From an uncultured Verrucomicrobiae bacterium (GTDB lineage Bacteria > Verrucomicrobiota > Verrucomicrobiia > Chthoniobacterales > UBA10450), in NCBI GenBank assembly GCA_963726745.1, contig CAVSDR010000004.1, positions 256,001 through 320,000 on the forward strand: DNA of 64,000 nt. Direction: 5' to 3'. A model generated the notes under the pieces. The model was not told the DNA's origin and made no database searches. It was given only the letters and a program-made list of their open reading frames with translations. The position numbers and the translations under genes are program-made. This document shows positions 1 through 61,835 of the stretch, in pieces. The stretch's first letter is position 1. Each line of letters starts with the position of its first letter.

Positions 1-3000
1 GGTCGCGTTCACGTTGACGCCATCGAGGCCGAGGTAGTAGGCGCTGAACGCCCGGATGCCATCCGCGGAGTACTCCGCAAAATCGCTCCCCACCCGGGCC
101 CAGCCGCCGATGAAACCATTAGCCAGCCCATTGATGAAAATGTGCGGGCCGTCGCTCCCGGTGCCGAGCGCACCGCCTAACGAGTTGAAGTTGACCGAGG
201 CGCCGCTGGTGATGGTGCCGAGGGCGGCAAAGATCAACGAGGAGCTGGTGCCAACGCCGCCCTGGTGGACCACGGTGACACTGGAAGCGCCGCTGAGGGC
301 GTTGAGCGCGCCGACTGTCTCCGTCGATCCGGTCGCATCCGAGATGAAACGAAAGGTGCCGCCGCCGAGCCGGATCGCGGCGGTATTGGAGATGCGATCC
401 GCGTGTTCCCCACCGCTGTTGTCGAGCGTCAGGGTGGTGCCGCTGTTGATCGTGAAGCTGGTCGCGCTCGCCGCGCTGCCGTTGTTCCCGGCGAGGAGCA
501 CGGCGCCCGCGTTTAACGTCACGGTGCCGCTGAAGGTATTCGCGCCGGAGAGCGTAAGCGTGCCGAAGCCGGATTTCACAAACGCACCCGTGCCGCTGAT
601 CGCGCCGGAAAACGCGGTCGAGGAATCGTCCGTCCCGGCATTCAAGGTAGCGGTCCCGAGGAGCACGCTCCCGGCGCCCGCGAGCGAGCCCACGGTTTCG
701 CTCTTGCTGTTTAGATTGAAAGTCGCGCCCGCGCCGACCGTGACGGCCGAGGTGTCGGCAATCACATTGGCCACGCCGAGCGTGAGCGTGCCGTTGCTGA
801 TCGTGGTCGCGCCGGTGTAAGTGTTCGCGCCGCTGAGGGTGAAGATCCCGCTGCCTGTTTTCGTGAGGCCGCCGCTGCCGCTGATGATGCCGGAAAAGGT
901 CGTGGCCGAATTATTCGCTCCCACGCTCAAGATTCCGCTCCCGAGCGTGACGCTGCCGCCGACTCCCGCGAGCGAGCCGATGGCTTCGTCGTAATCGTTC
1001 AGGTCGAAAATCGCCCCGGTCGAAAGCGTGACCGCGGAAGCGGCCGAGATGGAATTGTCCACGCCCGAGGCGCAACGTGCCGGCGCTGACCGTGGTCGCG
1101 CCGGTGTAGCTGTTCGCGCCGGCGAGGGTCACCACGCCGGCAGTGGTTTTCGTTAGGCCAACCGGGCCACCGAGGATGACGCCGATCGCGCCGCTGCTGA
1201 CCGCGTAGTTGGCGTTGCTCGTGAGCGTGGAGCTGCCGCTGCCGGTGATGCTGCCGCTGGTGAGCGTGACCGTGCCGACGGTGTCGCTGTGATCGGCCCC
1301 GAGATCGAGCGTGCCGCCATTGATCGTGACGCCGCCGCTGCCGAGGGCATCGCTCACTCCGTAGGCCAGGGTGCCGGCGCTCACGGTGGTGAGACCGCTA
1401 AACGTGTTTGCGTTGCTCAGCCGGACGGTTCCGCCGCCGATTTTCGTCAGGCCAAAGGCACCCGAGATGATCCCGGCGAAGTCCACTCCGCCGCCTGTCG
1501 CAGCGGTGACCGTCAGGAGATGGCTCAGGTTGATCGGGCCGGAGAAAATGTTGATCCCGGTGGTGTTCTGGCCGCCGAGCGTGAGCAATCCCGTGCTGCC
1601 GGCGCGGACGTTGATCGTGTTTGCGATCGTGCGCCCGGTCGCGGTGCCGAAAAGCAGGCTGGCCGCGTTCGAAGTCGTGATCGTGTCGCCTAAATTCACC
1701 GCCGCGGAGCCGAGCGCGCCATCGACCACGAGCGGGCCGTTCAAGAGGTCGGTCGTGCCGGTGTAGGTATTGGCGCCGCCGAGATAAAGCGTGCCCAGGC
1801 CAGTCTTGACCAACCCGCTGCTGGCGGTGCCGTCGGAGATCACGCCATTGACGATGAAATCGTTATCCCCGGTGACGGCGTTGTTGTTGATCAGGAAAGT
1901 GCGGGTGCCGTTCAAGCCCAGATTGGCGCTGACCGTGGTTACAGCGGTGGTCAAGGCGGTGGCGGTGACGTTGCCGCCGAGATCGAGCCGCCCGCTGCCG
2001 ATGATGCTGCCGCCAGTCGTGGTCAGCGCGCCGATGCGTTCGGTGAAGCTTTGCAGGTTGAGGACGCCGTCCAGCTTGAGATTGACCGTGGCCGCGTCGG
2101 GGACCTGATCGGCCGCATTCCATTGCACGATCGCGGAACCGGCCGCGCCTAACGAATCGCCGATCGTAAGCGTGGTGCTCGCAAAGGCATTGACGCCCGC
2201 GGTCTTGGCCAGGAGGAGCGTGCCATCGTTTACGATCGAGCTGCCGGAGTAGGTATTCGCCGCCGTCCCGCCGAGCGAGAGCGTGCCCGTGCCACTCTTG
2301 GTCAGGGCGAATGCTCCGCCGACCACGCCGCCGAACGCGACCGAGTTGTTGACCGTGAGCGTGACCGCTTTCGTCATCGTCACCGCGTTCGTGAAAGTGA
2401 AATCGTTCGCGCCGGAATAGGTGGTGTTACCGCCGAGGGAAACCAGGTTTCCGATCGTGCGGGCCCCGCCGCCGGCCTGGAGCGTGCCGGTGGTAAGGGT
2501 CAAGGTGCCGGTCCCGGCCGCCGCATCATTCCCCAGCACGAGCGTGCCCGCGCTCAGCGCGGTGCCCAGCGTGTAGGTGTTCGCGTTGTTCAAGACCAAG
2601 GTGCCGGCCCCGGTTTTGGTCAGTTTGCGCGCACCGCCGGATATGAGGCCATCGAAGGTCACCACGCCCGTTCCGCTCACGGTCAGCGTGCGGCTTCCGG
2701 TCATATTCACCGCCCCGCTGAAGCCGAGCGCCTCGGCCCCACTGAAGGTGGGATTGCCGGCCAGCGTAAGGGCGTTTGCGAGCGTCCGCGCCGCGCCGCC
2801 GGTATTCAACGTGGCCGTGCCGAGCGAAAGCGTCCCCGGCCCGATCGCGGAGTTGCTCCCCATGCACGAGCGTGCCCGCCGAGAGCGTCGTCGTGCCGGT
2901 GTAGCCATTAACGCCAGACAAAGTGAGCGTTCCCGTGCCGCTTTTGGTCAAGCCGCCGGCGCCGGTGATGTTTCCGGCAATGCTGGTGTTGAAGGCTCCG

Positions 3001-3477
3001 GTGAGCGTAAGCACAAACGCTCCCGTGCTCACATTGCCACCGAAAGCGAGGCCGCCGGCGCTGGCGTTCCACGTCTGCGCGCTGCCGAGCGTGAGGTTGT
3101 TGTTAATCGTCTGCGTGCTCGTGCTGCTGTTTAAAATTCCCGCCGCGGTCGTGATCGTGTAGGTCCCGGCGCCTCCGAGGGTGAAGGCAGCCGGCGGTCG
3201 CATTAAAGCTGAGCGAGCCGACCGAGAGGCTGGAAGTGAGCTGCGCCAGGAGGCTGCTGGTGCCCGCGAAAATAAGGAGGTCGCCCAGGAGCGGGCTCTG
3301 CGCCGGACTCCAATTCCCCGCGGTCGCGACGTTGCCGTCGCCGGCCGACCCGGTCCAGGTGAGCGTGGCCGCCGGCAGCGGGGAGCGCGGGAAAAAGGCG
3401 CAACAAAGCACCGCGGAGACGAAGGAAAGCTTCCTCGTCGCCGAACGATTGGCACTTCTTCTAGGCCCGCGGGACAT
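1..3477 (-). CDS. Large secreted autotransporter-associated beta-strand repeat (PATR) protein; runs off the left edge; frameshifted at ~3195, ~2865 and ~1060
   Basis: ORF pieces 3103-3477, 2526-3455 and 911-2908 plus the frame continuing to base 1 join into one protein. It has a signal-peptide-like N-terminus, 'LTWTG...NWS', and many 'LTKxGxGTLxLxxxNTYTGxTxxxAGTL' repeats. Confidence 0.85.
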
Positions 3478-3552
3478 CTCGCGTTCCTAAGCGGCTACCG
3501 TGCCATGGGGGCACGTGCCTCGGCGCCGGCCGGGGAAGAGACGGCCGCGCGG

Positions 3553-4331: not shown

Positions 4332-5723
4332 CTAACGATGGTTCGGATGCTTCGCCAGGTCTTCCAGCGGGATGAACGGCGTGAGATTGATCTGGCCCGT
4401 CTCGTCCCGCATTTTCGCCGTGTTCCATAGCGTGCCTTCCAGCGGATGGAGCCGTAATTTATAGCGTTTGCCGAGCCGAAACTTCTCCAGCTTCTGCGGC
4501 TTGAGCCCAATGAACGCCGGGTGCATCACCAAAATCTGCGCGTCGGCATACTGCCCGCGCACGACCTTGTCCACGCGGTAGACGTAAGCCACCAGCGCCT
4601 CCTGATACGGCAGCAGCTCGCGCAATTGCATCGGCGCGGACTTGAAAACCAAGGTCGCTTTCACGATCAGCGGCTCGAATTTTTTCGGCGGCGGGGCCGG
4701 CGTGAGCACGGGCGCGGGGGTGCTCACCGGCTCCGCGCGCTGCGCCACCGGCTCGGCCCGGAGCGCGACCGCTTCCGCGCGTTGCGGCACGGGCTCGGCA
4801 CGTGCGATCGGCCCGCTCCCCTGCCCCAGCGGCTGAAGTGCGGCGATCGGCTGCTGCGCCAGATCCTGCTGGATAATGGCGTAAACTTTGTCGGCCCATT
4901 CATCCATCTGCGCGCCGAGGAAGTGCTCCTTATCCGGCTCCATGTGCTGGTAGGGATACGTGACGAGCTTGCGGCTATCGATCACCTGCACCTCGGGGCC
5001 GAGATTTTCTTGCACCTGCTGGAGGAGGAAATCCTGCACTTCCGGCGCGACCCGGCCGGAGGTAGGCGGGTTGACCCAATAGATCTTCTTGATCGGCGAA
5101 GCGCCGCTAATCGCCTTTTCCTTGAAGGGCTGGAGGTATTTCCGCAGCTCCGCGGTGTGCCGGGCCACGTGGACCGATTTCGCGTCCGGGAAAAGGCCGA
5201 AAAGGTTGCTGCCGGTTTGCACCACGAGCACGTCCGGCTTGGCCGCGTCGAGCAATTCCTCGAGCTTTGGGACAAGGTGCGCCTTGGGCACATGGCCCGG
5301 GCTCATCCCGTAGACGTCCTGCATTTCGCGCGGCTCCTGCCCGAGCGACTCGATGCTCCAGTAGCCGCACTGTGTGCGCACGTTGCTGTAGGGTTTTTCC
5401 TTCAGCCAGCTCAATGGATTCGTCCCGCAGGTCATGTAGCTGAAGGTGGCGTTGACCTTCGGGTCGTTCCGGAAAAGGAAATCGAGATGTTTCCCAAAGC
5501 CGCAGAGCGCGAGCGAATCGCCCAGGAAGAGGACGTTTAATTTTCCCGCGGGCGCTGGATTGGCCTCCGGCAAAGGCGGCGCACTCGGAGCCGGCGCGGC
5601 CGCGGGTTTGCTGCGCGCGGCGAAGGAGCTGCCGGCGAGTGCGAGCAGACTCGTTAGGCAAATAGCCCGCGTTCTCCACCGTTGCCCCCCTTTGTTCATG
5701 CGCGCGGCTTCCTTGAACCCCAT
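4332..5723 (-). CDS. SGNH-fold protein with Pro/Ala linker and C-terminal beta domain
   Basis: Motifs 'LGDSL', 'TGSN' and 'DKEHF'; signal-peptide-like N-terminus. Confidence 0.7.
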   Translation of the reverse strand: MGFKEAARMNKGGQRWRTRAICLTSLLALAGSSFAARSKPAAAPAPSAPPLPEANPAPAGKLNVLFLGDSLALCGFGKHLDFLFRNDPKVNATFSYMTCGTNPLSWLKEKPYSNVRTQCGYWSIESLGQEPREMQDVYGMSPGHVPKAHLVPKLEELLDAAKPDVLVVQTGSNLFGLFPDAKSVHVARHTAELRKYLQPFKEKAISGASPIKKIYWVNPPTSGRVAPEVQDFLLQQVQENLGPEVQVIDSRKLVTYPYQHMEPDKEHFLGAQMDEWADKVYAIIQQDLAQQPIAALQPLGQGSGPIARAEPVPQRAEAVALRAEPVAQRAEPVSTPAPVLTPAPPPKKFEPLIVKATLVFKSAPMQLRELLPYQEALVAYVYRVDKVVRGQYADAQILVMHPAFIGLKPQKLEKFRLGKRYKLRLHPLEGTLWNTAKMRDETGQINLTPFIPLEDLAKHPNHR

Positions 5724-50733: not shown

Positions 50734-50859
50734 GTTCTTGTTTTTCCTCAGTTTGCCGCCTCCGGAAGCCTCCGGAGAATTGAACCCGGTAGCCACCGGG
50801 TCGGACAGTTGTTCTTGGTTGCTCGCCCCGCATCGGCAGGACGAAAGTCATTAAAGTCG

Positions 50860-53154: not shown

Positions 53155-56100
53155 CTACGGCCGGACGATCGCAGTCGGCGGTGTGCTTGCACTCGTTAGG
53201 GCGAAGACCTCTACGATGCCCACCCCGGTGCCTCCGTTTTTCCCGCGCACGATTGCAGTCGAGGGGCCAGGCATGAAGTTGAAGATCAGCGCCGACTCGC
53301 GGTCGTCGGTTGGCGCCAGTCCGGTGCCTTCAATGTCTGCCTGCGCGACATCCTTCCAGTCGTCGTTCGAGGCGATGACGTCGCCAGCCGCGTTGTAGAC
53401 TTGCATCGTGGGATCTGCCAGGAGGCCGGTGAGCCCTGAGCTGGCGAGTGATGGGCCGCGCGCACGCAGGATTACCTTGGAAACGCCGCTACCGCCGGGC
53501 CCCACGATCAACCCAGCGATCAGCACTTCATCGCCGCTGCCGACGAAGCAACGTGTGCTGATGTTGCTCAAGCGGGCGCTGCTCGCCGTGCCCAGGTCGA
53601 AGACCTCCACCAGCCCGATGCCGGTAGTGTTGTGCGCCCCGGAAAGCACCGCGGTGTAAGCGCCAGGATCGAGCGTGGCCACGATCGCCGACTCGGAGTC
53701 GTGCGTCGGCGCGAGCATCGAATTTTCGATCTCAAGTTGCTGGCTGTCTTTCCAGTTATCGTTCATCGCCACGAGGGTGCCGCCGGCGTAGAGCTTGAGC
53801 AGCGGATCGGCCAGCACCGTGGAAAGGCCGCGTCCGCTCAGGGTCTGGCCCAGGCCGCGGATGATCACCTTCTTCGGTTCGCCGCCGGTGATGATGAAGC
53901 CGCCGATGCCCACCTTGTCTGCCGTGAGCACGCACAGGCGGCTGGAGAGATTAAGCAACGGCGCGCCCTGCACGATGGTGGCCTCGGCGACAAAAAAGCC
54001 GTCGATCAAGGTGGCGACCTCGCCGCCGGTGGTGAGCAGGATGCTGCGGAAGCCAATGGCTGCGCCGGAAGCGATCGAGATGCGCACCTTCGCATGCGTC
54101 GCATCCGTCACCGTGACCGAGAGCACCGTGATCCCATCGCCGAACGAGGCGGTGGTGGTGCCGTTGACGAAGCTCGTGTTCGAGCCGGTCACATCGACGT
54201 CGAGCACCTGGCCGCGCTCGCCGGCATTCGGAAGCGCGCCGATTAACTGCGGCACGACCGCCACGCTGCTATTCACAAAGAGCGCCCGCTGCTTGTCCTC
54301 CGTGGCGCCGTCGGTGGTCACATCCGCAGCGCGGAAACCGATTCGCGCCGACGGGTCCACTTCCACCATCGCCTCGATCAAGGTGGGCGAGAGGACCGTG
54401 CGTGACGTAATCGTGATCCCGTCGCCTAACGAGAGCATGGAAGTGTCCTTCCAGGCGGTGTTGATCCCGCGGACGGTGACTTTTTGCGCGGTGTTTTGGC
54501 TAACCGCGTTTGGTTCCACGCTTAATAGCGTGGGCGCGGTGATCTCCGGCACGATCTCGACCAGGTCGCGGCCCGCAGCAGTTTCGGTGGCGGAGCCGAG
54601 CGGAGTCTGCACGGTCACGTCGCGGAAGCCGAGCGTGGCGCTGGCATCGACATTCACCAAAACGGTAAGCCGCGTGGCGGTGGAGACCGTGACCGAGACG
54701 ACATCGATGCCCGTCCCGGCAAAGCTCACGGTGCTGCCCGTCCGCCAGTTCGTCCCGCGGCCGACGAGCTCGATCGCGAGCATCGTGCCCTGCGGCAGAT
54801 TATCGGAATCTGCCTGCAGCACGCTCGGTCCGAGGGTGCTCGACATGATGTTGAAGAGAGCGGCTTCGTATTCCGTGCGCGCGCCGGTATTCACGTCGTC
54901 GCGCACGATGAAAGCGCCGCCTGTTTCCGCCGACATGGTCGAGAAGAGCTGCACCGCCGAGGTCAGGAAAGCGAAGGCATCCTCCGCGACCTTGAGCCGA
55001 TAAGCCGAGGGTGTGCTGCTCGTGGAGCGCGTAACCGCGACGAAATAATCTCCCGAAACCGTCGGCCGGAAGGTCAATTGCGCCGGCCGGCTGCTAAATG
55101 GAGATCCACTTGTAATGAAGGTCGTCCCGTCGGTGTCGTAGAGCGTCACCAGCGGAGTCGTTCCGCCCTCGAGGAAAGCGGTCACAGCGTAGGGCCGGCC
55201 AGCTTCCAGATGCACCTGGAAATAGTCCGCCGCATCCGGTGCCAGGCCCACTAACCCGCGCACTTCCTCCTGGTTCACCAGCAGGGTGGTGGCAGTCGCC
55301 GGCGTGTCGCCGCCTTCATCCGGCGGCGGCTGGCCGGGGTCCACGATCGGGTCCTGGCCCGGGTCGTCATCGCCTGGTTTCGAGGGATAGATCCCGAAGC
55401 GCGTGGCGCCGGCGCCGCTAACGAACTGGATCTGCGGCGTGGCCGGGGCTGCATCCTCCGCCTGTGGCGGGTTCAGCGTGGCGCCGGCCATGATGCCAAC
55501 GCAATCGCCGGAAAGCACCGTGTTCATGGTCACGCGCTTGGCCCGCAATTGCGCCACGACCGCGCCATTATCCACGCCTGGCTGCGAGGAGGCGTCGGTC
55601 GCGAAAAGGATCGTGCCTCCCGGAGAGATGTTGCCGGCTGCCACCTGCAGCGCCTGCGCGCCCGCTTCCGGGCAATCGCCGCCGCCCGAGGCAAAGAGCG
55701 CGGCCACCGCGGAGCGCACGGCATCGAGGTTGTTCGAGGTGATCCGGGTGGTCACGTTATCCTTGAAGGTGATCAACTGAATCGTCGGCGGCGTGCCACC
55801 ACGCGCCGCGACCGCATCGATGAAGCTTTGCAGCGCACTCCGGACGCCGGCGATTTCTTCGCCCATGCTGCCGGTATCATCGATCACGAAGATGATCGAG
55901 ATGCCGCCGATGCTCCGCGCCCGGCTCCAATAATGGTCGAGCGTGCCGCCCGGCGTCACCGGCGCGCTGGTGTTCTTCCCTTCCACGACCCACTTCACCA
56001 CGCTGTCGCCTCCCACGATCGTGGCCCATTCAGCCATCGAAGGCGTGAAGGTGGTGACGTTCCCGAGTTCCTTCTCGAAGATGATCGAGCTGAAGTCGTT

Positions 56101-58074
56101 TTTGTAGAATCGGATCCGGAAATCATTCAACGGATTGGGCGGGCCGCCGCCATTGCGCGTCCACGTGAAGGCGGGCGGCGTCGCGCCCGCGTTGAAATTA
56201 TCCGCCGGCGCCGTCAACTCCGGCGCGATCATCGCCTGGCCGAAGAGCCCGCCCACGACGGTTTTTTGCTGCGTGCTCAAGGTGGCGGCGATCGCTTCCC
56301 AGGCTGCGCCGATCGTCTTCACGGCCGCGCTCTTGAAAGCGTTAAAGAGGAACTTGTCGCCAAAAGTCGACTGGTCGGCGCCGTCGCCGGCTGCGTCGAA
56401 CAAATCCCAAAGCGACGACATCGTGGAGACCTCGTCGTCCTCGCCGACGCCCGCGTTCGTCTCGAGGTCGATGTTGTTCGTCGAATCTTCCGTGTCGGTG
56501 TATCTTGTGTCGCCCACGTTCGGCACCATCAAGCCGGCTGCGCCCGAGACGTTCTGCCCCGAGGTCCCGAAAAATGTCGGCCAGCCTTCGCCCCAGGCGA
56601 GGCGAACGCCCACGTCTTTGCTCCCGCGGGTCTGCGCGAGGTGGGTATTGAAGGAGTGCCGGCCGCCGGGATTCGCCTGGAAGCCGTGGATGTTTTGGAA
56701 GTAATGCCCGTACTCGTGGTGGATCACATCCCAGTCGAAGCGATCGAGCTTCAGGATGTGGAGCTGCTTTACCCCGGAATCGAAGAGCGAGGTCGAGCGC
56801 GTCGTCGGGAAACGCACGTCCACCTGCGATGGCGCCGTGCCTGCGAGGCCGCCGGCGTAGCTCCCGATCATCACCAGCGCGTGGTGCACCCCGAAGACGG
56901 TCTCGTTATCGGCCGCGTTCCCCGCGGTCAGATTGATCGTTAGGCTGGAGCCGTCCGCGACTTCGTTTGTCGTCGGCGAAGTCATCGCGTAGGTCTCGGC
57001 CCCGGCCGCGTCGGGCTTGATGTCGCCGATCGGCGAACGCGCGAGCACGCGCACGAAGATGTCCGGATTGCCCTGCAGGGGGCCGTCGTCGTGGGTGAAG
57101 GTTGCTGTGTAATTGCCCGCCGCATTCGTCATCACCGTAGTGATCAACTCCGAGCCGACGACGTCTTCATCGCGGATCTCGACCGTCGCCATCGGCACGC
57201 CGTGAGTCTTCCCGCCCTTGTCGGTCCAGAGCACTTTGCCGCTCACCGTGATCGTGACCGGCGCCGCGGGCGAGGCGCTGGTTTTTGGCGGCGCCACCGC
57301 GCTCGCCGGCAAAGCCGAGGGGATCACGGCGATCGCCTGCTGCAGGCGTTCTTCGGCCACGGTCATCCGTTCGCGGCTCAAGGGCCGCGCGTCCGCCGGC
57401 ACCGCCGCGGTCACCACCGCCTCCATCGCTGCGCGCGCGCCCACGGCATCGAGTTCGCCAGTCGCGGCCAGCGTTTGCGCGCGCCAGAGAAGCAGGTCGG
57501 TGTAGCTCGAGTAGCTCCCCCACAGACGCCGGCCCTCGGCCAGCGCGTAAAGATCCACCCGCCGCAAGTGCAGCACGTTGCCTTTCACATCCAGCGCCTC
57601 GGCAATGATCTGCGCGCGGCCGTTGCCTGCACCGCGTATCGGCAAGGCGGCCTGCACCGTGCGCGTGGCCCCGGCGGTCCAGGGTCCGCCTAACGAGAGG
57701 ACGCGCTCGCCATTGGCCAGCACCCCTTCGCCGCTGGTCCGGATGCGCACCGAAGCGGCGTCGGCGTCCAACGCCACGGTCAAGGAGGCCGGCAATTCCC
57801 CCCTCTCCACCGCCCCGTCCCACGAGGCTTCCACCTGAAGCGAGAGCGGGCCCTTGGCCGAGCAATCGATCGATTCGTTAGGCAAATGCGGCCGTGCACT
57901 CGTTAGGCCTGGACCCGGCGGACGCGGCGGCGGCGGGGCGGCAGCAGCTGATGGCAGCGTGGCGAGAACGAGACCCAATGGGAGCAGTGCTACCAGGCAG
58001 CGCTGCGCGCGAGTTGACCGACGGGCGCGAAACAGGAAGAGACCCAACGCCCACGAAACCGGGGGGAGTTTCAT
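53155..58074 (-). CDS. Large secreted multidomain protein: zinc-metalloprotease-like domain, vWA, PPC-like, three Ig/IPT-like repeats, tandem NLSTR-type C-terminal domain
   Basis: 'HHEYGH' plus 'WGEGW'; 'FVIDDTGSM' and 'GGGDCPE'; 'DAADYFQV'; three 'G.GI.V.S..V...T...V.V...A..GFR' repeats; 'LLNLSSR' and 'LSNISTR'. Confidence 0.8.
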   Translation of the reverse strand: MKLPPVSWALGLFLFRARRSTRAQRCLVALLPLGLVLATLPSAAAAPPPPRPPGPGLTSARPHLPNESIDCSAKGPLSLQVEASWDGAVERGELPASLTVALDADAASVRIRTSGEGVLANGERVLSLGGPWTAGATRTVQAALPIRGAGNGRAQIIAEALDVKGNVLHLRRVDLYALAEGRRLWGSYSSYTDLLLWRAQTLAATGELDAVGARAAMEAVVTAAVPADARPLSRERMTVAEERLQQAIAVIPSALPASAVAPPKTSASPAAPVTITVSGKVLWTDKGGKTHGVPMATVEIRDEDVVGSELITTVMTNAAGNYTATFTHDDGPLQGNPDIFVRVLARSPIGDIKPDAAGAETYAMTSPTTNEVADGSSLTINLTAGNAADNETVFGVHHALVMIGSYAGGLAGTAPSQVDVRFPTTRSTSLFDSGVKQLHILKLDRFDWDVIHHEYGHYFQNIHGFQANPGGRHSFNTHLAQTRGSKDVGVRLAWGEGWPTFFGTSGQNVSGAAGLMVPNVGDTRYTDTEDSTNNIDLETNAGVGEDDEVSTMSSLWDLFDAAGDGADQSTFGDKFLFNAFKSAAVKTIGAAWEAIAATLSTQQKTVVGGLFGQAMIAPELTAPADNFNAGATPPAFTWTRNGGGPPNPLNDFRIRFYKNDFSSIIFEKELGNVTTFTPSMAEWATIVGGDSVVKWVVEGKNTSAPVTPGGTLDHYWSRARSIGGISIIFVIDDTGSMGEEIAGVRSALQSFIDAVAARGGTPPTIQLITFKDNVTTRITSNNLDAVRSAVAALFASGGGDCPEAGAQALQVAAGNISPGGTILFATDASSQPGVDNGAVVAQLRAKRVTMNTVLSGDCVGIMAGATLNPPQAEDAAPATPQIQFVSGAGATRFGIYPSKPGDDDPGQDPIVDPGQPPPDEGGDTPATATTLLVNQEEVRGLVGLAPDAADYFQVHLEAGRPYAVTAFLEGGTTPLVTLYDTDGTTFITSGSPFSSRPAQLTFRPTVSGDYFVAVTRSTSSTPSAYRLKVAEDAFAFLTSAVQLFSTMSAETGGAFIVRDDVNTGARTEYEAALFNIMSSTLGPSVLQADSDNLPQGTMLAIELVGRGTNWRTGSTVSFAGTGIDVVSVTVSTATRLTVLVNVDASATLGFRDVTVQTPLGSATETAAGRDLVEIVPEITAPTLLSVEPNAVSQNTAQKVTVRGINTAWKDTSMLSLGDGITITSRTVLSPTLIEAMVEVDPSARIGFRAADVTTDGATEDKQRALFVNSSVAVVPQLIGALPNAGERGQVLDVDVTGSNTSFVNGTTTASFGDGITVLSVTVTDATHAKVRISIASGAAIGFRSILLTTGGEVATLIDGFFVAEATIVQGAPLLNLSSRLCVLTADKVGIGGFIITGGEPKKVIIRGLGQTLSGRGLSTVLADPLLKLYAGGTLVAMNDNWKDSQQLEIENSMLAPTHDSESAIVATLDPGAYTAVLSGAHNTTGIGLVEVFDLGTASSARLSNISTRCFVGSGDEVLIAGLIVGPGGSGVSKVILRARGPSLASSGLTGLLADPTMQVYNAAGDVIASNDDWKDVAQADIEGTGLAPTDDRESALIFNFMPGPSTAIVRGKNGGTGVGIVEVFALTSASTPPTAIVRP

Positions 58075-58188: not shown

Positions 58189-58707
58189 CTAGGGCCGCGG
58201 AAAATACGCCAGCGAGACCGACGCCGCCTTTTGACCCGCCAGCCGGCTCAGTTCCCGCAGGAGCGGGTCCACCTTGCTCTCGTTAGTCAAAGGCGTCTCC
58301 CACTGCACCGCGGTGCGCGCAGCCGCCCCGCCCGCGACGATCTCCAGCCGCCGCTCGCCAAAATCGAAGACCTGTCCCTCGCGTTTTGCGGGCTGGAAAT
58401 GTTGCAGGTTATTTGCCCGCACGATCTCCCAAAGCTTCCGATATTCCGCTTCCGAAAGCATCGCCTGCGCTTCCTCCGCGACGGCGCCTTCGCTCCCCCG
58501 CCGGACCGCGAGGGTGCCGCTCTTGCCATCCCAACTCGCTTTCACCGTCTCCGTCGGTGCCCCGGGTTTGCCCGGCGTAATGCTGGCCACGATCTCCGCC
58601 GGCACCGGCAACGCCGCGTCGTCGCCAAATCCACAGGAAGGCAGCAACAAAAGCGCGGCGGCCAGCGCAGCGAGCCGACAATCAGCGCGACGTGTGGTGT
58701 GATGCAT
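58189..58707 (-). CDS. Putative lipoprotein
   Basis: Lipobox-like 'LLLPSC'; lies immediately upstream of the protease/vWA gene. Confidence 0.6.
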   Translation of the reverse strand: MHHTTRRADCRLAALAAALLLLPSCGFGDDAALPVPAEIVASITPGKPGAPTETVKASWDGKSGTLAVRRGSEGAVAEEAQAMLSEAEYRKLWEIVRANNLQHFQPAKREGQVFDFGERRLEIVAGGAAARTAVQWETPLTNESKVDPLLRELSRLAGQKAASVSLAYFPRP

Positions 58708-58788: not shown

Positions 58789-60087
58789 TCAGCGCGCTGT
58801 CTGTTTTTCCACTCGGCCCGCTTTCATGACAAAGGCGACGCGCTCGGTCACGGTGATGTCGCTCGTGGGATCGCCCGGGAGCGCGATGATGTCGGCTGTT
58901 TTTCCTTTCTCAAGCGTGCCGGTGGTGGCGGCGATGCCTAACAAGTCAGCGGCGACGGAGGTGGCCGCGCGGAGGGCATCGATCGGCGTCATCCCAAAGC
59001 TGGTCATGAGCGCGAATTCCTTCGCGTTTTCTCCATGCGGGAAGACGCCGGCATCCGTCCCGAAAGCAATCTTCACCCCCAGCTGGACCGCGTTGCGAAA
59101 CATCTCGCTGCGCGCGGCCGCGGCGGCTTTCGCCTTTTCCTGGATCGCGGGCGGATAGGCAGCAATCTTGCCCATGATGTATTCCGTCGCCTCGAGCGTG
59201 GCCACGAGGTAGGTCCCTTTCGCTTTCATTAGGGCGAGCGTGTCCTTCTTCAAAAACGAGCCGTGCTCGATCGAGTCCACGCCGGCGTTGATCGCTTCCT
59301 TGGCCGCGCTGTCGCCGTGGCAATGCACCGCCACCTTCTTCCGCAGCCGGTGCGTCTCGCTCACCAACATCGCGATTTCATCCGGCGCAAGCTGCGGCAC
59401 GTCGACCTCGTCCTTCATCGAGAGGACGCCGCCAGAGACCGCCGCCTTGATCACATCCGCGCCGTTCTTGATCTGGTAGCGCACGGCCTTGCGGATCGCC
59501 TCGGGGCCGTCGGCAATGCCATCGAGCTCATTCGGCTCGCGGCCGAAGAGCGCGTCGCGGAAGCCGTTGGTGTCGTCAAAGTGGCCGCCGGTGGCGCCGA
59601 TCCCCTTGGTCGCGGCGAGCATGCGCGGTCCGCGCACGAGGCCCTTCTCAATCGCGTCGCGCAGGGCCACGTCGAGGAACGCCTTGCTTCCGACATCGCG
59701 CACGGTGGTGAAGCCGGCCTCCAGCGTTTTCGCCGCGTTCGGGATCGCCTCAAACGCGGAGAGCGGCACGCTCGTCTCGAGCTCGTTCAGGCGGCGCTCG
59801 TTGTAGGGGCGCGAGAAGTCGGAAGTGAGATGCGTGTGCGCATCGATGAAGCCAGGCGAAAGCGTGGCGTCGCCGAGGTCGATCACTTGCGCGCCCGGCG
59901 GAATGGCGAGATTCGCGCCGGCGTCCACGATCTTGCCGTTCTCCACCAGGACAACCGCGTTCTGCACCAGCCCGGGCGATTTGCCGTCAAACATCCGCGC
60001 CGCTTTCAGCGCAATCACGTCGGCTGCGCGAGCCGTTGGAAGCTGGAGGAGCAAAGTGAGAGCGACGAGGCTGGTGGCGATTTTCAT
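58789..60087 (-). CDS. Secreted metal-dependent amidohydrolase (Xaa-Pro dipeptidase-like)
   Basis: 'PGFIDAHTH', 'GFTTVRD', 'HCHG', 'SIEHG', 'FGTDAG'. Confidence 0.9.
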   Translation of the reverse strand: MKIATSLVALTLLLQLPTARAADVIALKAARMFDGKSPGLVQNAVVLVENGKIVDAGANLAIPPGAQVIDLGDATLSPGFIDAHTHLTSDFSRPYNERRLNELETSVPLSAFEAIPNAAKTLEAGFTTVRDVGSKAFLDVALRDAIEKGLVRGPRMLAATKGIGATGGHFDDTNGFRDALFGREPNELDGIADGPEAIRKAVRYQIKNGADVIKAAVSGGVLSMKDEVDVPQLAPDEIAMLVSETHRLRKKVAVHCHGDSAAKEAINAGVDSIEHGSFLKKDTLALMKAKGTYLVATLEATEYIMGKIAAYPPAIQEKAKAAAAARSEMFRNAVQLGVKIAFGTDAGVFPHGENAKEFALMTSFGMTPIDALRAATSVAADLLGIAATTGTLEKGKTADIIALPGDPTSDITVTERVAFVMKAGRVEKQTAR

Positions 60088-60179
60088 GTGCGCAATACAA
60101 TCGGGCGCCAACGGGACGGCGCGTGGATTTTGTCGCTCGCCATTTCCGGCCGGAAGCAGTTCGATGCCTCCTTTCGTCC

Positions 60180-61835
60180 ATGAAAACCTTCCTCTGTTCT
60201 CTCCTCCTGGCGCTTTCCTTGGTCTCGTTAGGGCAGGCGACGCCGGACAAAGCGCTGGCTAAATTAGCCGACGACTTCTGGACCTGGCGCGTGGCGACCG
60301 CGCCCTTCAGCGGCGACGACGTTAACCGCATGGAGCGCCCCGGCGGCCCGCGCGATTGGTCGGCCGCGGCGATCGCGCAACGGAAGGCGAAGCTGGCGGA
60401 ATTTGACGCGCGCTGGAAGCAGCTCGAGCCCGCCAGCTGGCCCATCCCTGAGCAGGTCGACTATCGCCTGATCGGCTCGGCCCTCGCGCGGGTGCGCTGG
60501 GAACTGGAGATCAATCCGCGCTGGCAGCGCGACCCGCTGTTCTATCTCGACCAGACACTGACCGCGCTGGCCGAGGCGCTCACGGTCCCGGCGCCGTTCG
60601 ATGAAACCCGCAGCCGCGAGGTGCTTGCACGTCTGGAGAACATCCCCGCGATCCTGGCGGATGGGAGGGCGAACTTGCAGGATCCGCCCGCGCCTTTCGC
60701 CCGCTCCGCAATCGCCGCGCTCGAGGGCGTGACCGCGCGCCTGACCGAAGGAGTGCGCGCGCTGCAGCCTGCAACCACGCTCTCAGGCGATCGGCTAACG
60801 AGTGCTGCTGCCAAAGCGGCCGACGCGCTCGAGCAATACCGCGCCCACCTGCAGGAGCTGCTGCCGTCGTTGCCCGAAAGAACCGCAGTTGGCCGCGAGG
60901 CCTACCTGTTCTTCCTGCGCAACGTCGCGCTCTATCCATTCACCCCGGAGGAGATCCTGGCGATGGGCCGGCAGGAATGGAATCGCGCGGTCGCTTTCGA
61001 AACCTACGAGCGCGAGCGCAACCGCGCCGTCCCGCCGCTGAAAATAGCCGACAACCTGGAGAAGTGGATCAAGGAAACGGCCGCCCGCGAAGAGCAGATC
61101 CGCGCATTCCTCCCGGCGCACAACCTTCTCACGGTGCCGGAGTGGATGCAGCACTACACCCTGCGCCCGATGCCCGCCTATCTGCGCCTCCTGAACCAGA
61201 CGGAAGCGGACGACTTCACCGGGCCGACGCGGCTCTCGGAAAATTGCGTGCGCTACGTCGAGCCGCCCTCGGGGAAGATGGGCTACTTCATGCGCGCGAC
61301 CGCGCAGGATCCGCGGCCGTTGATCGTGCACGAGGGCATTCCCGGGCACTACTTCCAGCTCGCGCTCTCGTGGAAACACGAGGACCCGATTCGTCGCCAT
61401 TATTACGACTCCGGCGCGAACGAAGGGATCGGCTTCTACGCCGAGGAGATGATGCTGCAGGCGGGGCTCTTCGACGACAGCCCGCACACGCGCGAGATCA
61501 TCTACAACTTCGCCCGGCTGCGCGCGCTCCGGGTGGAAATAGACGTCAAGCTGGCGCTCGGCGAGTTCACGCTCGAGCAGGCGGCAAAGTATCTCGAGGA
61601 GAAGGTGCCGATGGATCCTGCGACCGCCCGCAGCGAGGCGATTGCCTTTGCCTCCGGTCCCGGCCAGGCGCTCACCTACCAGATCGGGAAGCTGCAGATC
61701 ATCGGCTTCCTGGCGGACGCGAAGCTAAAGGAAGGCGAGAAGTTCAACCTGCGCGCCTTCCACGATTTCGTGTGGAAGAATGGGAACGTCCCAATCCAGC
61801 TGCAGCGCTGGGAATACCTCGGCGAAAAGCCCTGA
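60180..61835 (+). CDS. DUF885 family protein (metallopeptidase-like)
   Basis: 'HEGIPGHYFQ', 'EGIGFYAE', 'PGQALTYQIG', 'FHD'. Confidence 0.88.
   Translation: MKTFLCSLLLALSLVSLGQATPDKALAKLADDFWTWRVATAPFSGDDVNRMERPGGPRDWSAAAIAQRKAKLAEFDARWKQLEPASWPIPEQVDYRLIGSALARVRWELEINPRWQRDPLFYLDQTLTALAEALTVPAPFDETRSREVLARLENIPAILADGRANLQDPPAPFARSAIAALEGVTARLTEGVRALQPATTLSGDRLTSAAAKAADALEQYRAHLQELLPSLPERTAVGREAYLFFLRNVALYPFTPEEILAMGRQEWNRAVAFETYERERNRAVPPLKIADNLEKWIKETAAREEQIRAFLPAHNLLTVPEWMQHYTLRPMPAYLRLLNQTEADDFTGPTRLSENCVRYVEPPSGKMGYFMRATAQDPRPLIVHEGIPGHYFQLALSWKHEDPIRRHYYDSGANEGIGFYAEEMMLQAGLFDDSPHTREIIYNFARLRALRVEIDVKLALGEFTLEQAAKYLEEKVPMDPATARSEAIAFASGPGQALTYQIGKLQIIGFLADAKLKEGEKFNLRAFHDFVWKNGNVPIQLQRWEYLGEKP

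What the first reader, a model, noticed from the sequence alone, without database searches (positions are those of the whole stretch)
175..60802. Highly iterated non-palindromic 10-mer GCCTAACGAG embedded in coding sequence (uptake-sequence- or binding-site-like)
Seen in sequence: GCCTAACGAG starts at 175, 16568, 20763, 22796, 26221, 31221, 32295, 34339, 41598, 54424 and 57688. Its reverse complement CTCGTTAGGC starts at 5650, 6188, 8184, 28459, 33244, 36010, 36990 and 57899. That is 19 exact copies by manual count. About 30 more keep the CTAACGA core (e.g. 1149, 2147, 7260, 9064, 9732, 18641, 19368, 21020, 26674, 32845, 35408, 46323, 56936, 57874, 60224, 60793). My rough zero-order expectation at ~65% GC is ~0.1-0.2 exact copies per 64 kb. 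The motif fits genes in three different ways, using A/T-ending codons that are otherwise rare here: TCG-TTA-GGC (Ser-Leu-Gly, 14 of 19, including the conserved GDSLG of NadA), CTA-ACG-AGT (Leu-Thr-Ser, 4 of 19) and CCT-AAC-GAG (Pro-Asn-Glu, 1 of 19). Both orientations occur with no obvious strand skew. Established knowledge: this frame-accommodated pattern is how the Pasteurellaceae and Neisseria DNA uptake sequences behave, whereas Chi and KOPS are replichore-polarised and cyanobacterial HIP1 is palindromic. Inference: this is a DNA-level signal (uptake sequence, nucleoid/condensin-protein site, or methylation/repair-driven motif). I know of no such description for this lineage.
Basis: partly seen in the sequence, partly recalled or inferred. 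Interest (0 to 1): 0.9.

Follow-up and report, generated by a model that had tools for sequence, protein, structure and literature searches.

The report
Two iterated DNA words, uptake-signal-like
A soil Verrucomicrobium writes two short DNA words thousands of times into its genes, stop codons and spacers, much as Haemophilus and Neisseria do with their DNA-uptake signals, which suggests, but does not prove, that this uncultured family recognises its own DNA.

Summary
GCCTAACGAG (M1) occurs 19 times in the window (0.04 expected) and 820 times in the 3.41-Mb genome. It is the commonest 10-mer there. Genes hold 639 copies against 7 after synonymous-codon shuffling.

M1 sits in all four stop-free frames, on 108 stop codons and in spacers. 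It has no replichore polarity (863 vs 863). It avoids itself below about 200 bp and arises in place by point substitution. It is scarce in low-GC accessory or mobile DNA.

M1 exceeds its reversed control in most of 36 genera of the family. It is not enriched in 16 genomes of other families.

A second, longer word (M2, consensus S-A-W-S-K-Y-G-Y-Y-G-K-C-T-A-A-W-T-Y) has 3669 sites against 26 for the control. It is essentially confined to this species. Contigs of two other soil runs, which look like short-read data, confirm three M2 sites.

Best reading, about 0.4: uptake-sequence-like self-DNA tags kept by biased recombination. No reader protein was found, and uptake is untested. Searches of the literature found no description. 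This scan noted similar words earlier on other DNA, but not these.

The parts
175..184 (+). M1 exact GCCTAACGAG
5650..5659 (-). M1 exact
6188..6197 (-). M1 exact
8184..8193 (-). M1 exact
16568..16577 (+). M1 exact
20763..20772 (+). M1 exact, in GDSLG of NadA
22796..22805 (+). M1 exact
26221..26230 (+). M1 exact
28459..28468 (-). M1 exact
31221..31230 (+). M1 exact
32295..32304 (+). M1 exact
33244..33253 (-). M1 exact
34339..34348 (+). M1 exact
36010..36019 (-). M1 exact
36990..36999 (-). M1 exact
41598..41607 (+). M1 exact
54424..54433 (+). M1 exact
57688..57697 (+). M1 exact
57899..57908 (-). M1 exact
1149..1158 (-). M1 variant (SNCTAACRAV)
2147..2156 (+). M1 variant
6016..6025 (+). M1 variant
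7260..7269 (-). M1 variant
9064..9073 (+). M1 variant
9732..9741 (-). M1 variant
14261..14270 (-). M1 variant
17487..17496 (+). M1 variant
18641..18650 (-). M1 variant
19368..19377 (-). M1 variant
21020..21029 (+). M1 variant
22208..22217 (+). M1 variant
26674..26683 (+). M1 variant
29067..29076 (-). M1 variant
32845..32854 (-). M1 variant
35408..35417 (-). M1 variant
41764..41773 (-). M1 variant
42113..42122 (-). M1 variant
45207..45216 (+). M1 variant
50856..50865 (-). M1 variant
52524..52533 (-). M1 variant
53094..53103 (+). M1 variant
53192..53201 (-). M1 variant
55416..55425 (+). M1 variant
57874..57883 (-). M1 variant
58279..58288 (-). M1 variant
58936..58945 (+). M1 variant
60224..60233 (-). 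M1 variant
60793..60802 (+). M1 variant
116..133 (-). M2 site 15.8 bits
844..861 (+). M2 site 17.5 bits
1679..1696 (+). M2 site 23.9 bits
3120..3137 (+). M2 site 15.0 bits
3568..3585 (+). M2 site 25.1 bits
3673..3690 (+). M2 site 17.9 bits
5526..5543 (+). M2 site 15.1 bits
6596..6613 (+). M2 site 17.7 bits
6610..6627 (-). M2 site 15.9 bits
7380..7397 (+). M2 site 18.5 bits
8098..8115 (-). M2 site 19.5 bits
9099..9116 (-). M2 site 23.2 bits
9232..9249 (+). M2 site 26.9 bits
9432..9449 (-). M2 site 15.6 bits
9585..9602 (-). M2 site 17.5 bits
12000..12017 (-). M2 site 17.5 bits
12206..12223 (+). M2 site 17.8 bits
13118..13135 (-). M2 site 16.0 bits
13578..13595 (-). M2 site 17.0 bits
15773..15790 (-). 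M2 site 20.7 bits
15870..15887 (-). M2 site 20.7 bits
16267..16284 (-). M2 site 14.7 bits
16682..16699 (+). M2 site 17.1 bits
17087..17104 (-). M2 site 19.2 bits
17608..17625 (-). M2 site 22.1 bits
18348..18365 (+). M2 site 22.7 bits
18496..18513 (-). M2 site 23.4 bits
19470..19487 (+). M2 site 19.5 bits
21122..21139 (+). M2 site 22.3 bits
21180..21197 (-). M2 site 22.3 bits
21362..21379 (+). M2 site 27.3 bits
22097..22114 (+). M2 site 25.6 bits
23105..23122 (+). M2 site 22.6 bits
23660..23677 (+). M2 site 25.6 bits
23838..23855 (-). M2 site 17.7 bits
24181..24198 (+). M2 site 16.9 bits
24550..24567 (-). M2 site 19.9 bits
25905..25922 (-). M2 site 21.4 bits
27002..27019 (-). M2 site 21.8 bits
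27708..27725 (+). M2 site 19.3 bits
28172..28189 (-). M2 site 20.6 bits
29665..29682 (-). M2 site 15.4 bits
30441..30458 (+). M2 site 19.9 bits
30496..30513 (-). M2 site 14.5 bits
31920..31937 (+). M2 site 22.2 bits; unchanged in a contig of run X2
32377..32394 (-). M2 site 22.3 bits
32560..32577 (-). M2 site 22.6 bits
33088..33105 (-). M2 site 21.2 bits; unchanged in a contig of run X1
34222..34239 (+). M2 site 23.5 bits
34714..34731 (+). M2 site 15.6 bits
36585..36602 (+). M2 site 17.5 bits; unchanged in a contig of run X2
37420..37437 (-). M2 site 20.1 bits
37663..37680 (-). M2 site 26.2 bits
38732..38749 (-). M2 site 20.2 bits
39373..39390 (+). M2 site 19.1 bits
40198..40215 (+). M2 site 14.8 bits
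41721..41738 (+). M2 site 22.2 bits
42022..42039 (-). M2 site 15.3 bits
43162..43179 (-). M2 site 14.0 bits
47583..47600 (+). M2 site 20.6 bits
48532..48549 (-). M2 site 16.8 bits
51026..51043 (-). M2 site 14.9 bits
52814..52831 (-). M2 site 19.7 bits
54910..54927 (+). M2 site 19.2 bits
56350..56367 (+). M2 site 15.5 bits
58790..58807 (+). M2 site 16.4 bits
58885..58902 (+). M2 site 17.9 bits
60248..60265 (+). M2 site 24.3 bits (face-to-face pair)
60261..60278 (-). M2 site 24.9 bits (face-to-face pair)
61041..61058 (-). M2 site 23.1 bits
61536..61553 (-). M2 site 19.0 bits
61834..61851 (+). M2 site 17.7 bits
61910..61927 (-). M2 site 18.0 bits
62346..62363 (+). M2 site 20.6 bits
63055..63072 (-). 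M2 site 14.5 bits

Best explanation
The genome carries two DNA-level words that share a [G/C]CTAA core.

M1 is GCCTAACGAG(T). Its tolerant form SNCTAACRAV has 2015 copies, and it is common to a whole family of soil Verrucomicrobia. M2 has the consensus S-A-W-S-K-Y-G-Y-Y-G-K-C-T-A-A-W-T-Y, about 3700 copies, and is essentially confined to this species.

Shown here: both words are created in place by point substitution. They appear wherever the sequence allows: silent codon positions, tolerated amino-acid changes, stop codons and the first bases after genes. They sit on either strand without regard to replication direction. Copies of one word keep apart from each other. Recently acquired DNA lacks them.

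Inferred: the words are self-DNA tags of the DNA-uptake-sequence kind (USS of Pasteurellaceae, DUS of Neisseriaceae). A surface or periplasmic component of the type IV pilus / ComEC uptake route would bind DNA that carries a word. Such fragments would then enter and recombine more often. Alleles that gain a word would replace alleles without it (molecular drive) until coding cost stops the spread.

Also inferred: M2 is a newer 'dialect' that arose in this lineage from the shared core, while M1 is still kept.
For: Over-representation at the DNA level:
- M1 is the commonest 10-mer, with 820 copies.
- Genes hold 639 exact M1 against 7.0 after synonymous shuffling, 1499 against 108 for the tolerant form, and 3084 against 155 for M2.
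- The M2 matrix finds 3669 sites against 26 for its reversed control.

Frame accommodation:
- The 820 exact M1 copies split as 357 S-L-G, 127 P-N-E, 102 L-T-S/R and 45 L-V-R. A further 109 straddle a gene end, 108 of these supplying the gene's own stop codon, and 80 are intergenic.
- The two remaining frames contain a stop.

Effect on proteins:
- 454 of 783 S-L-G tripeptides use TCG-TTA-GGC, although TTA is a 3% Leu codon.
- S-L-G is 1.63 times and P-N-E 2.33 times commoner than composition predicts. Their reversed tripeptides give 0.91 and 1.32.
- Uptake sequences roughly double their cognate tripeptides (PMC2817400, abstract).

No polarity: M1 lies 863 vs 863 and M2 1572 vs 1550 on the G-rich vs C-rich strand.

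Self-avoidance: the nearest M1 copy is within 100 bp for 3.3% of sites against 11.5% at random. For M2 the figures are 13.7% against 19.4%.

Origin in place: in a 12-kb syntenic alignment at about 71% identity, M1-family sites number 12 in G000, 23 in G078, 24 in G154, 22 in G024 and 1 in G002. Five of the 12 G000 sites are shared at the same column with another species. Elsewhere the orthologous bases are ordinary codons. M2 has 15 sites in G000 against 0 to 2 in the others.

Native-DNA marker:
- 25 of 678 5-kb windows hold 2 sites or fewer, and most are lower in GC.
- They include an O-antigen-type cluster and dockerin/kelch secreted proteins.
- They also include segments 97-99% identical to a congener that is otherwise about 75% identical.

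Family-wide with dialect-like variants:
- M1 exceeds its control in most of the 36 genera. It is not enriched (0 to 6 copies; 14 clustered copies in G028, below its control) in 16 genomes of other families.
- M2 is confined to G000, and a related word GYCGGCTAAC to G046.

Gene ends: 276 of 444 non-coding M1 sites and 242 of 480 non-coding M2 sites lie within 60 bp after a stop. Only 24% of non-coding bases do.

Uptake machinery is encoded:
- Full-length ComEC (DUF4131 + Competence + Lactamase_B).
- DprA.
- A PilM-to-secretin operon.
- A secretin beside a PilB/GspE-type ATPase.
- Pilin-like genes.
Against: - No uptake, binding or transformation data exist for this uncultured lineage.
- The competence genes are common in bacteria without uptake sequences, as the tool's control genomes show. 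ComEC is found in 142 of 151 family genomes whatever their M1 density.
- No ComP_DUS receptor homologue reaches its cut-off. The two hits, at 21.9 and 19.1 bits, cover only generic pilin N-termini.
- Known uptake sequences often form inverted pairs in terminators (bioRxiv 10.1101/2025.10.24.684340, passages). M1 does not: only 6 opposite-strand neighbours lie within 60 bp. The 73 face-to-face M2 pairs are mostly inside genes (63 of 73).
- Two abundant words in one genome that do not avoid each other have no precedent among known uptake systems.
- One-off variants at the M1 core are at or below Markov expectation. A strongly selected protein-binding site would show the same.
- Earlier notes of this scan report similar words in giant viruses, which do not transform (AI notes, unchecked). 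Such words therefore need not be uptake signals.
Confidence: 0.4

Rival explanations
1. The words are binding sites for lineage-specific chromosomal DNA-binding proteins, such as a nucleoid-associated or loading factor. Selection on a chromosome function keeps them numerous, and DNA uptake plays no part.
For: - The core is sharply invariant: variants at M1 positions 3-7 and 9 occur 0 to 28 times against 820 exact copies.
- Copies of one word are spaced apart.
- Density is even along contigs, including across the GC-skew switch on contig C2.
- The two words are independent of each other.
- Similar words are reported in giant viruses (unchecked notes).
Against: - No candidate protein was identified.
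- I know of no chromosomal protein that needs thousands of exact sites written into coding sequence at the cost of rare codons and amino-acid changes. That is my own knowledge, not a test.
- Density varies more than 30-fold among sister species with similar genomes, from 51 to 1749 copies in one genus. An essential architectural role is hard to square with that.
- Known high-copy chromosomal signals are replichore-polarised (my own knowledge); this one is not.
Confidence: 0.22
2. The words are by-products of a sequence-specific repair or methylation system, as proposed for HIP1 of cyanobacteria. Near-cognate sequences are converted to the word by biased mismatch correction.
For: - HIP1 is a comparable hyper-abundant word linked to orphan methyltransferases (PMC4390886, abstract start in a search listing).
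- Several one-off variants of M1 are depleted below expectation, for example C3>G at 1 vs 11.6 and A9>C at 1 vs 9.9.
- The genome encodes an N6_N4 methyltransferase found in 142 of 151 family genomes.
Against: - No Vsr-type endonuclease was found in the 94.7%-complete genome.
- The C5 methyltransferase is patchy (31 of 151 genomes), was not found in G046, and has 84-89% identical copies in genomes without M2.
- The conserved N6_N4 enzyme is also present in M1-poor genomes. It occurs in 7 of 56 genomes outside the family; the five checked hold 6 to 54 CCTAACGA against 90 to 174 for the control.
- The N6_Mtase hits lie at contig ends or in mobile DNA shared with G002, which lacks M2.
- Depletion affects many positions and both kinds of substitution, not one mismatch type.
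- A site-by-site conversion process does not predict self-avoidance over 200 bp.
- The words are not palindromic.
Confidence: 0.13
3. The words are Chi-, KOPS- or other replication-oriented signals.
For: The density of about one exact M1 per 4.2 kb is, by my recollection, like that of E. coli Chi.
Against: There is no orientation bias relative to GC skew: 863 vs 863 for M1 and 1572 vs 1550 for M2. The contigs do carry a consistent, if weak, skew. By my recollection, enrichment of about 90-fold for a 10-mer is far above that of known Chi or KOPS words.
Confidence: 0.02
4. The words are an artefact (systematic base-calling error), or remnants of a miniature mobile element, or reflect selection on the peptides.
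For: M2 is seen in only one assembly of 151. That assembly has just 7 contigs, which suggests long reads.
Against: - M1 is enriched over its reversed control in most of the 150 other assemblies searched.
- Three M2 sites are identical in contigs of two other soil runs that look like short-read data and differ elsewhere from the window.
- The flanks of the copies are unrelated, and orthologous positions align without insertions, so no element was inserted.
- The words occur in four frames, on stop codons and in spacers, so no peptide is the target.
Confidence: 0.02

Closest known systems
Uptake signal sequences (USS) of Pasteurellaceae
   Same: - A short non-palindromic core with weaker flanks, AT-rich in M2.
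- Hundreds to thousands of copies on both strands.
- Most copies lie inside genes in the permitted frames. USS: 65% and 49% in ORFs (PMC2817400, table heading). Here: 77% in frames plus 13% on stop codons.
- Cognate tripeptides are roughly doubled (PMC2817400 abstract).
- Genes without homologues in relatives lack them (PMC2817400 abstract).
- Family-wide distribution.
   Different: - A different phylum and an unrelated sequence.
- Uptake preference is untested, and no receptor is known.
- No inverted-repeat terminator pairs.
- Two abundant words coexist in one genome.
- About a tenth of all genes (314 of 3181) use the word as their stop codon.
DNA uptake sequence (DUS) of Neisseriaceae and its dialects
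   Same: - A 10-12-mer word.
- A conserved core with lineage-specific variants ('dialects'; PMC3630211, title and abstract start in a listing; passages of bioRxiv 10.1101/2025.10.24.684340).
- Here M1, the G046 word and M2 share [G/C]CTAA and differ in their flanks.
- Scarce in mobile DNA (PMC7371117, title and abstract start).
   Different: - The ComP_DUS receptor domain was not found above its cut-off.
- DUS often occur as inverted pairs in terminators; these words do not.
- M2 is far longer and more degenerate than any DUS dialect.
HIP1 (GCGATCGC) of cyanobacteria
   Same: A hyper-abundant word written into coding DNA with lineage-specific abundance and unknown function (PMC4390886, abstract start).
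   Different: HIP1 is a palindrome tied to orphan methyltransferases. M1 and M2 are asymmetric, and no co-distributed methyltransferase was found.
Chi and KOPS-type polar chromosome words
   Same: Over-represented short words at kilobase spacing.
   Different: Those are replichore-polarised (my own knowledge). M1 and M2 are not.

Membership tests
DNA uptake enhancing sequences (USS/DUS) | Short word in hundreds to thousands of copies on both strands, far above chance | tested here: met
   820 exact M1 copies, the top 10-mer. Genes hold 639 against 7.0 after codon-preserving shuffling. M2 has 3669 sites against 26 for its control.
DNA uptake enhancing sequences (USS/DUS) | Sits in coding DNA in every stop-free frame and raises the cognate tripeptides | tested here: met
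   Four frames are used. S-L-G is 1.63 times and P-N-E 2.33 times commoner than expected. Compare the PMC2817400 abstract.
DNA uptake enhancing sequences (USS/DUS) | Shared by a bacterial family, with dialects between lineages | tested here: met
   M1 exceeds its control in most of 36 genera and is not enriched in 16 genomes of other families. Variant words occur in G000 and G046 (G046 is unpublished).
DNA uptake enhancing sequences (USS/DUS) | Lacking in recently acquired DNA | tested here: met
   Word-poor windows are lower in GC and hold accessory clusters or near-identical mobile segments.
DNA uptake enhancing sequences (USS/DUS) | Inverted-repeat pairs within transcription terminators | tested here: not met
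   Six opposite-strand M1 neighbours lie within 60 bp. Of the M2 face-to-face pairs, 63 of 73 are inside genes. Single sites are nevertheless enriched just after stop codons.
DNA uptake enhancing sequences (USS/DUS) | Host encodes type IV pilus, ComEC and DprA uptake machinery | tested here: met
   This is permissive only: ComEC is in 142 of 151 family genomes irrespective of word density.
DNA uptake enhancing sequences (USS/DUS) | Known receptor (ComP_DUS domain, PF16732) | tested here: not met
   The best hits score 21.9 and 19.1 bits against a cut-off of 27.3, and they cover pilin N-termini.
DNA uptake enhancing sequences (USS/DUS) | Fragments carrying the word are taken up preferentially by competent cells | not testable with these tools
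   This needs a cultured strain and an uptake assay.
HIP1-type words linked to methyltransferases | Palindromic word containing the site of a co-distributed orphan methyltransferase | tested here: not met
   The words are asymmetric. The methyltransferases found are either mobile and patchy, or conserved but not co-distributed. No Vsr was found. The methylation state itself was not tested.
Chi / KOPS polar words | Orientation bias with the direction of replication | tested here: not met
   M1 863 vs 863 and M2 1572 vs 1550, in 50-kb windows with |GC skew| of at least 0.008.
REP / MITE-type dispersed repeats | Copies share extended flanks or structure, are inserted, and lie between genes | tested here: not met
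   The flanks are unrelated. Copies arise by substitution at aligned orthologous positions. 77% of exact M1 copies are in reading frames.

The most novel reading that the evidence does not exclude
This genome is caught midway through a change of DNA-uptake 'dialect'.

The ancestral family word M1 is still kept but is thinner here than in sister species. G000 has 820 copies against 1404 to 1749 in G013, G024, G078 and G154. Orthologous sites have been lost by reversion to ordinary codons.

A new, longer word built on the same [G/C]CTAA core has meanwhile spread to about 3700 sites in this species alone. An intermediate word has spread independently in one species of another genus.

If so, the reader protein has duplicated or shifted specificity very recently. 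It could then be identified by comparing this genome and G046 with their word-poor relatives. That would give the first uptake-sequence system outside Proteobacteria, and a natural experiment on how such specificity evolves.
Probability: 0.2. Interest if true: 0.9.

Novelty: new variant of a known kind. Interest (0 to 1): 0.78.

Why it matters
Sequence-specific DNA uptake is described for only two families of Proteobacteria (bioRxiv 10.1101/2025.10.24.684340, passages). A comparable genomic imprint in a large family of uncultured soil Verrucomicrobia would imply that self-biased natural transformation, or another unknown reader of genomic words, operates in a large family of uncultured soil bacteria.

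There are practical uses:
- The words mark native against recently acquired DNA, which helps binning and island detection.
- If they are uptake signals, adding them to donor DNA could make these bacteria genetically tractable.
- Two related words in one genome, one of them species-specific, give an unusually sharp comparative handle for finding the reader protein.

The words together occupy about 2.5% of the genome. That figure is my arithmetic from 2015 sites of 10 bp and 3669 sites of 18 bp. They have also reshaped codon use, tripeptide frequencies and stop-codon choice.

Tried and rejected
Gene calling:
- My first home-made gene caller rejected real genes whose stop-to-stop frames overlapped neighbours. 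Examples are an ABC-2 permease and a 1093-aa protein. A synonymous-only score was worse.
- The early figure of '30% intergenic, twofold enriched' is therefore withdrawn.
- With the better set (3183 genes, 88.7% coding), M1 density between genes equals the genome mean (0.57-0.64 vs 0.59 per kb). The real excess is at stop codons and just after them.

Searches for variants and relatives:
- Another dialect in the M1-poor congeners G002 and G005: none. The same core is weakly enriched, 7- to 33-fold, in 190-kb samples.
- A private second word in G024 or G015: none clear.
- A fixed M1-M2 arrangement: the peak of 60 at offset -8 is a set of hybrid sites matching both loose patterns. With the matrix, only 2 sites coincide.
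- Recent transfer between G000 and G046: no segment above 86% identity in a 242-kb sample, about a tenth of that genome.
- Closer relatives carrying M2: 80 metagenome loci with at most 81% protein identity show 0.03-0.06 M2 per kb.

Searches for a reader protein:
- ComP_DUS gave only sub-threshold hits.
- No Vsr was found.
- Three methyltransferase families were searched in the genome, and two enzymes were profiled across the family and the order. None tracks the words.
- ComEC presence does not track M1 density.

Sequencing runs:
- The runs hold only 5-11% of the sampled words.
- Uncovered parts of the stretch, and run X3 (short, poorly matching pieces), say nothing.

Earlier findings and unused tools:
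- A look-up of earlier findings by sequence returned nothing.
- No protein structure, complex prediction or large protein search was run, because no candidate justified one.

Full report
**1. The observation**

Dinucleotide-preserving shuffles give 0.04 copies on average and never more than 1. The CTAACGA core occurs 49 times against 3.44 expected.

The window is contig C4:256001-320000 of a 3,406,779-bp, 7-contig genome of about 64% G+C. Earlier notes of this scan call it a soil Verrucomicrobium (I did not test that).

Genome-wide there are 820 copies (445 on the + strand, 375 on the - strand). This makes M1 the most abundant 10-mer, ahead of all G+C-only words. Markov models of order 1 to 3 expect 4 to 6 copies.

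**2. Extent of the word**

With CTAACGA fixed (2025 sites), the flanks read G (87%) and C (75%) upstream and G (64%) downstream. There is a weak A/T preference two and five bases further on.

The one-off table shows which positions tolerate change:
- Positions 3-7 (CTAAC) and 9 (A) are intolerant. Their variants occur 0 to 28 times, at or below an order-3 expectation.
- Position 1 tolerates C (99 copies).
- Position 2 tolerates G, A and T (166, 81 and 54).
- Position 8 tolerates A (93).
- Position 10 tolerates A and C (226 and 237).

The tolerant form SNCTAACRAV has 2015 copies.

**3. Relation to genes**

My first gene caller was faulty (see Tried and rejected). The improved one gives 3183 genes and 88.7% coding. 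It is home-made: 3' ends are exact stop codons, but starts are approximate.

The 820 exact copies are placed as follows:

| Placement | Copies |
|---|---|
| nnC-TCG-TTA-GGC (S-L-G) | 357 |
| nnG-CCT-AAC-GAG (P-N-E) | 127 |
| nGC-CTA-ACG-AGn (L-T-S/R) | 102 |
| CTC-GTT-AGG-Cnn (L-V-R) | 45 |
| Straddling a gene end | 109 |
| Intergenic | 80 |

The two other frames contain TAA or TAG. Those frames are used as the genes' own stop codons: 57 genes end on the TAA and 51 on the TAG of an exact copy. For the tolerant form the numbers are 187 and 127 of 3181 genes. Stop-codon usage is TGA 35%, TAG 35% and TAA 30%.

Shuffling synonymous codons within each gene leaves 7.0 exact copies against 639 observed, and 108 against 1499 for the tolerant form (10 shuffles).

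Of 783 S-L-G tripeptides, 454 are written TCG-TTA-GGC, although TTA is a 3% Leu codon. S-L-G is 1.63 times and P-N-E 2.33 times commoner than amino-acid composition predicts. Their reversed tripeptides give 0.91 and 1.32.

In the window, 14 of 19 copies are S-L-G, 1 is P-N-E and 2 are L-T-S. The other 2 fall in 5' parts of frames that my gene starts exclude. The GDSLG copy lies in NadA.

**4. A second word**

While ranking over-represented 8-mers I found a second family around GGCTAA. It has conserved bases upstream and an A/T run downstream.
- The strict pattern AWNNNGYYGGCTAWW occurs 870 times, against 13 for its reversed control.
- An iteratively refined matrix has the consensus S-A-W-S-K-Y-G-Y-Y-G-K-C-T-A-A-W-T-Y. 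It finds 3669 sites at 14 bits or more, against 26 for the reversed matrix.
- The window holds 75 such sites.
- Like M1, this word (M2) occupies several frames, with 8.8% intergenic and 8.0% at gene ends.
- It supplies stop codons: 225 genes end on TAGCCRRC and 96 on GGCTAA.
- It survives synonymous shuffling, 3084 against 155.

Both words share [G/C]CTAA.

**5. Polarity and spacing**

The contigs carry a weak but consistent GC skew. In 50-kb windows with |skew| of at least 0.008:
- M1 lies 863 times on the G-rich and 863 times on the C-rich strand.
- M2 lies 1572 and 1550 times.
- Genes lie 1356 and 1320 times.

Copies of one word avoid each other:
- The nearest M1 is within 100 bp for 3.3% of sites (11.5% at random) and within 200 bp for 9.8% (21.6%).
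- For M2 the figures are 13.7% against 19.4%, and 26.9% against 34.8%.

M1 and M2 do not avoid each other (22.0% against 19.4% within 100 bp).

There are no inverted M1 pairs to speak of. The 73 face-to-face M2 pairs are mostly inside genes, 63 of 73.

Non-coding sites concentrate within 60 bp after stop codons: 276 of 444 for M1 and 242 of 480 for M2, where only 24% of non-coding bases lie.

**6. Origin in place**

A 12-kb stretch (window 26000-38000) is syntenic in four congeners at about 71% nucleotide identity (57% for G024).
- M1-family sites number 12 in G000, 23 in G078, 24 in G154, 22 in G024 and 1 in G002. These are my counts from the table.
- Five of the 12 G000 sites share their alignment column with a site in another species. 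The rest face ordinary codons, for example CAGCTCGGC opposite TCTCGTTAGGC.
- At four columns (3160, 6621, 7423, 15337) other species have the word where G000 has 2 to 3 changes in TAA.
- M2 has 15 sites in G000 against 0 to 2 in the orthologous stretches. They are made from partly matching ancestors, mainly by creating CTA.

No insertions are involved.

**7. Word-poor DNA**

Only 25 of 678 5-kb windows hold two sites or fewer, and most are lower in G+C. Their contents:
- An O-antigen-type polysaccharide cluster.
- A set of dockerin, kelch and beta-helix secreted proteins.
- Unknown genes.

Segments 97-99% identical to congener G002, which is otherwise about 75% identical, all fall in such windows. 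One of them overlaps an HsdM-like methyltransferase hit.

**8. Distribution**
- Among 24 congeners M1 ranges from 51 to 1549 copies, with reversed controls of 11 to 57. The family draw adds G154 with 1749.
- In 150 other genomes of 36 genera of the family, most exceed the control. Examples are g41 with 331-1338, g34 with 351-908 and g19 with 487-714.
- A few genera sit at control level: g22, g29, g39, g47 and g49.
- Sixteen genomes of 15 other families of the order hold 0 to 6 copies. One holds 14 clustered copies.
- M1-poor congeners still show the same core as their most enriched dispersed word.

M2 is different:
- Of the 150 other genomes, only G046 (145), G015 (49) and perhaps G171 (25) exceed control.
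- Matrix hits in samples of G024, G015, G002 and G005 are 36-94 per Mb, against about 1070 per Mb in G000.
- G046 belongs to another genus but is equally distant from G000. It has its own related word, GYCGGCTAAC: 216 against 22 for the control, and no other genome of its genus shares it.
- Eighty metagenome loci related to a window gene (51-81% protein identity) carry M1 at 0.04-0.41 per kb and M2 at 0.03-0.06 per kb.

Statements on G046, and the counts for G001, G008, G042, G053 and G169, rest on unpublished genomes.

**9. Not an artefact**

M1 is enriched over its reversed control in most of the other assemblies. For M2, two soil runs of another study hold 151-384-nt contigs that are 95-100% identical to the window. 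Some have loose ends that look like a Nextera adapter, by my recollection.

Three M2 sites (31920, 33088, 36585) lie in pieces whose differences are all listed, and none falls in the site. M1 at 36010 is covered with no listed difference inside it, although 2 of the 6 differences in that piece are unlisted. These runs may come from the same campaign as the assembly. Their contigs differ from it, so they represent sister strains.

**10. Looking for a reader**

The genome encodes the following:
- Full-length ComEC.
- DprA.
- A weak ComEA-like HHH motif.
- A PilM-to-secretin operon.
- A secretin beside a PilB/GspE-type ATPase.
- Pilin-like proteins.

This is only permissive. ComEC is in 142 of 151 family genomes regardless of M1 density.

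Other results:
- ComP_DUS gives only sub-threshold hits on pilin N-termini.
- No Vsr was found.
- The C5 methyltransferase is patchy (31 of 151) and was not found in G046.
- The N6_N4 methyltransferase is in 142 of 151 family genomes, M1-poor ones included. It is also in 7 of 56 genomes of other families. The five of these that I checked have no CCTAACGA excess.

**11. Reading**

The shown facts define a genome-wide, strand-symmetric force that acts on DNA sequence itself. It is strong enough to override codon preference and to change proteins. It saturates at about one copy per few hundred bases for each word. It depends on residence time in the lineage.

This is the imprint described for uptake sequences:
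- PMC2817400, abstract.
- PMC1939737, abstract.
- bioRxiv 10.1101/2025.10.24.684340, passages.

I take it as the best explanation, at about 0.4. Three points weigh against it: the lack of any functional test, the lack of terminator pairs and of a receptor, and the presence of two independent words. A selected protein-binding role (0.22) and a repair or methylation drive (0.13) remain open. Polar signals, artefact, mobile element and peptide selection are excluded.

**12. Literature**

Four searches returned nothing that describes these words:
- 'DNA uptake sequence' with Verrucomicrobia gave 3 papers, none on the subject.
- The 10-mer itself or its complement appeared in 38 papers. The 15 listed are eukaryotic or medical studies by title, where such strings are presumably primers; the other 23 were not shown.
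- Udaeobacter with natural competence gave 1 paper, off topic by its abstract.
- Abundant or iterated words with Verrucomicrobia or Chthoniobacter gave no relevant title among the 15 listed of 449.

Subscription journals and supplements were not searched.

Earlier notes of this scan report uptake-signal-like or HIP1-like words in other lineages, and in giant viruses. They do not report these words, and they are unchecked.

Noticed in passing
genome-wide; window sites listed under parts (75 sites): A second iterated word, M2 (consensus S-A-W-S-K-Y-G-Y-Y-G-K-C-T-A-A-W-T-Y), was not part of the given finding. It has 3669 sites against 26 for the control and is essentially specific to this species.
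   Followed up: yes
genome-wide (3181 gene ends); e.g. window gene ends: Stop-codon usage is TGA 35%, TAG 35% and TAA 30% in a 64% G+C genome. 314 genes end on a stop inside an M1-family word, and at least 225 end on TAGCCRRC of M2.
   Followed up: partly
G000 C1:5127-5258, C3:82903-83070, C3:731719-731832, C4:146754-146855, C6:313696-313929, C6:1027519-1027668 (outside the window): Tandem arrays of the hexamer GCCAAC, 17 to 39 units each. CCGACT-type arrays also appear among the top 14-mers.
   Followed up: no
G000 C6:22961-23494, C2:175-752, C2:5922-6294, C4:371399-372430: Segments 97-99% identical to congener G002, which is otherwise about 75% identical. This is shared mobile DNA. The last segment overlaps an HsdM-like N6_Mtase hit.
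   Followed up: partly
G000 C3:981317-982012: An N6_N4 DNA methyltransferase is conserved in 142 of 151 family genomes at 60-80% identity for full-length matches. It is patchy (7 of 56) in other families of the order, and its target is unknown.
   Followed up: partly
G005 C12:409293-409950 and C4:285924-286617: In congener G005, both ComEC and the conserved methyltransferase are split over two frames. This could be real frameshifts or assembly indels.
   Followed up: no
G000 C2:219351-219458 (L062:351-458): A TPP riboswitch lies upstream of a short ThiC-like open frame, inside a word-poor, low-GC 10-kb stretch.
   Followed up: no
window 60248-60278, 6596-6627; 73 pairs genome-wide: Face-to-face M2 pairs share an A/T centre, with core centres 5-9 bp apart. 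63 of the 73 pairs lie inside genes.
   Followed up: partly
window 36292-39570 (+): A 1093-aa protein with a weak multihaem Cytochrom_c3_2 match. It is conserved in congeners at 77-79% nucleotide identity.
   Followed up: no
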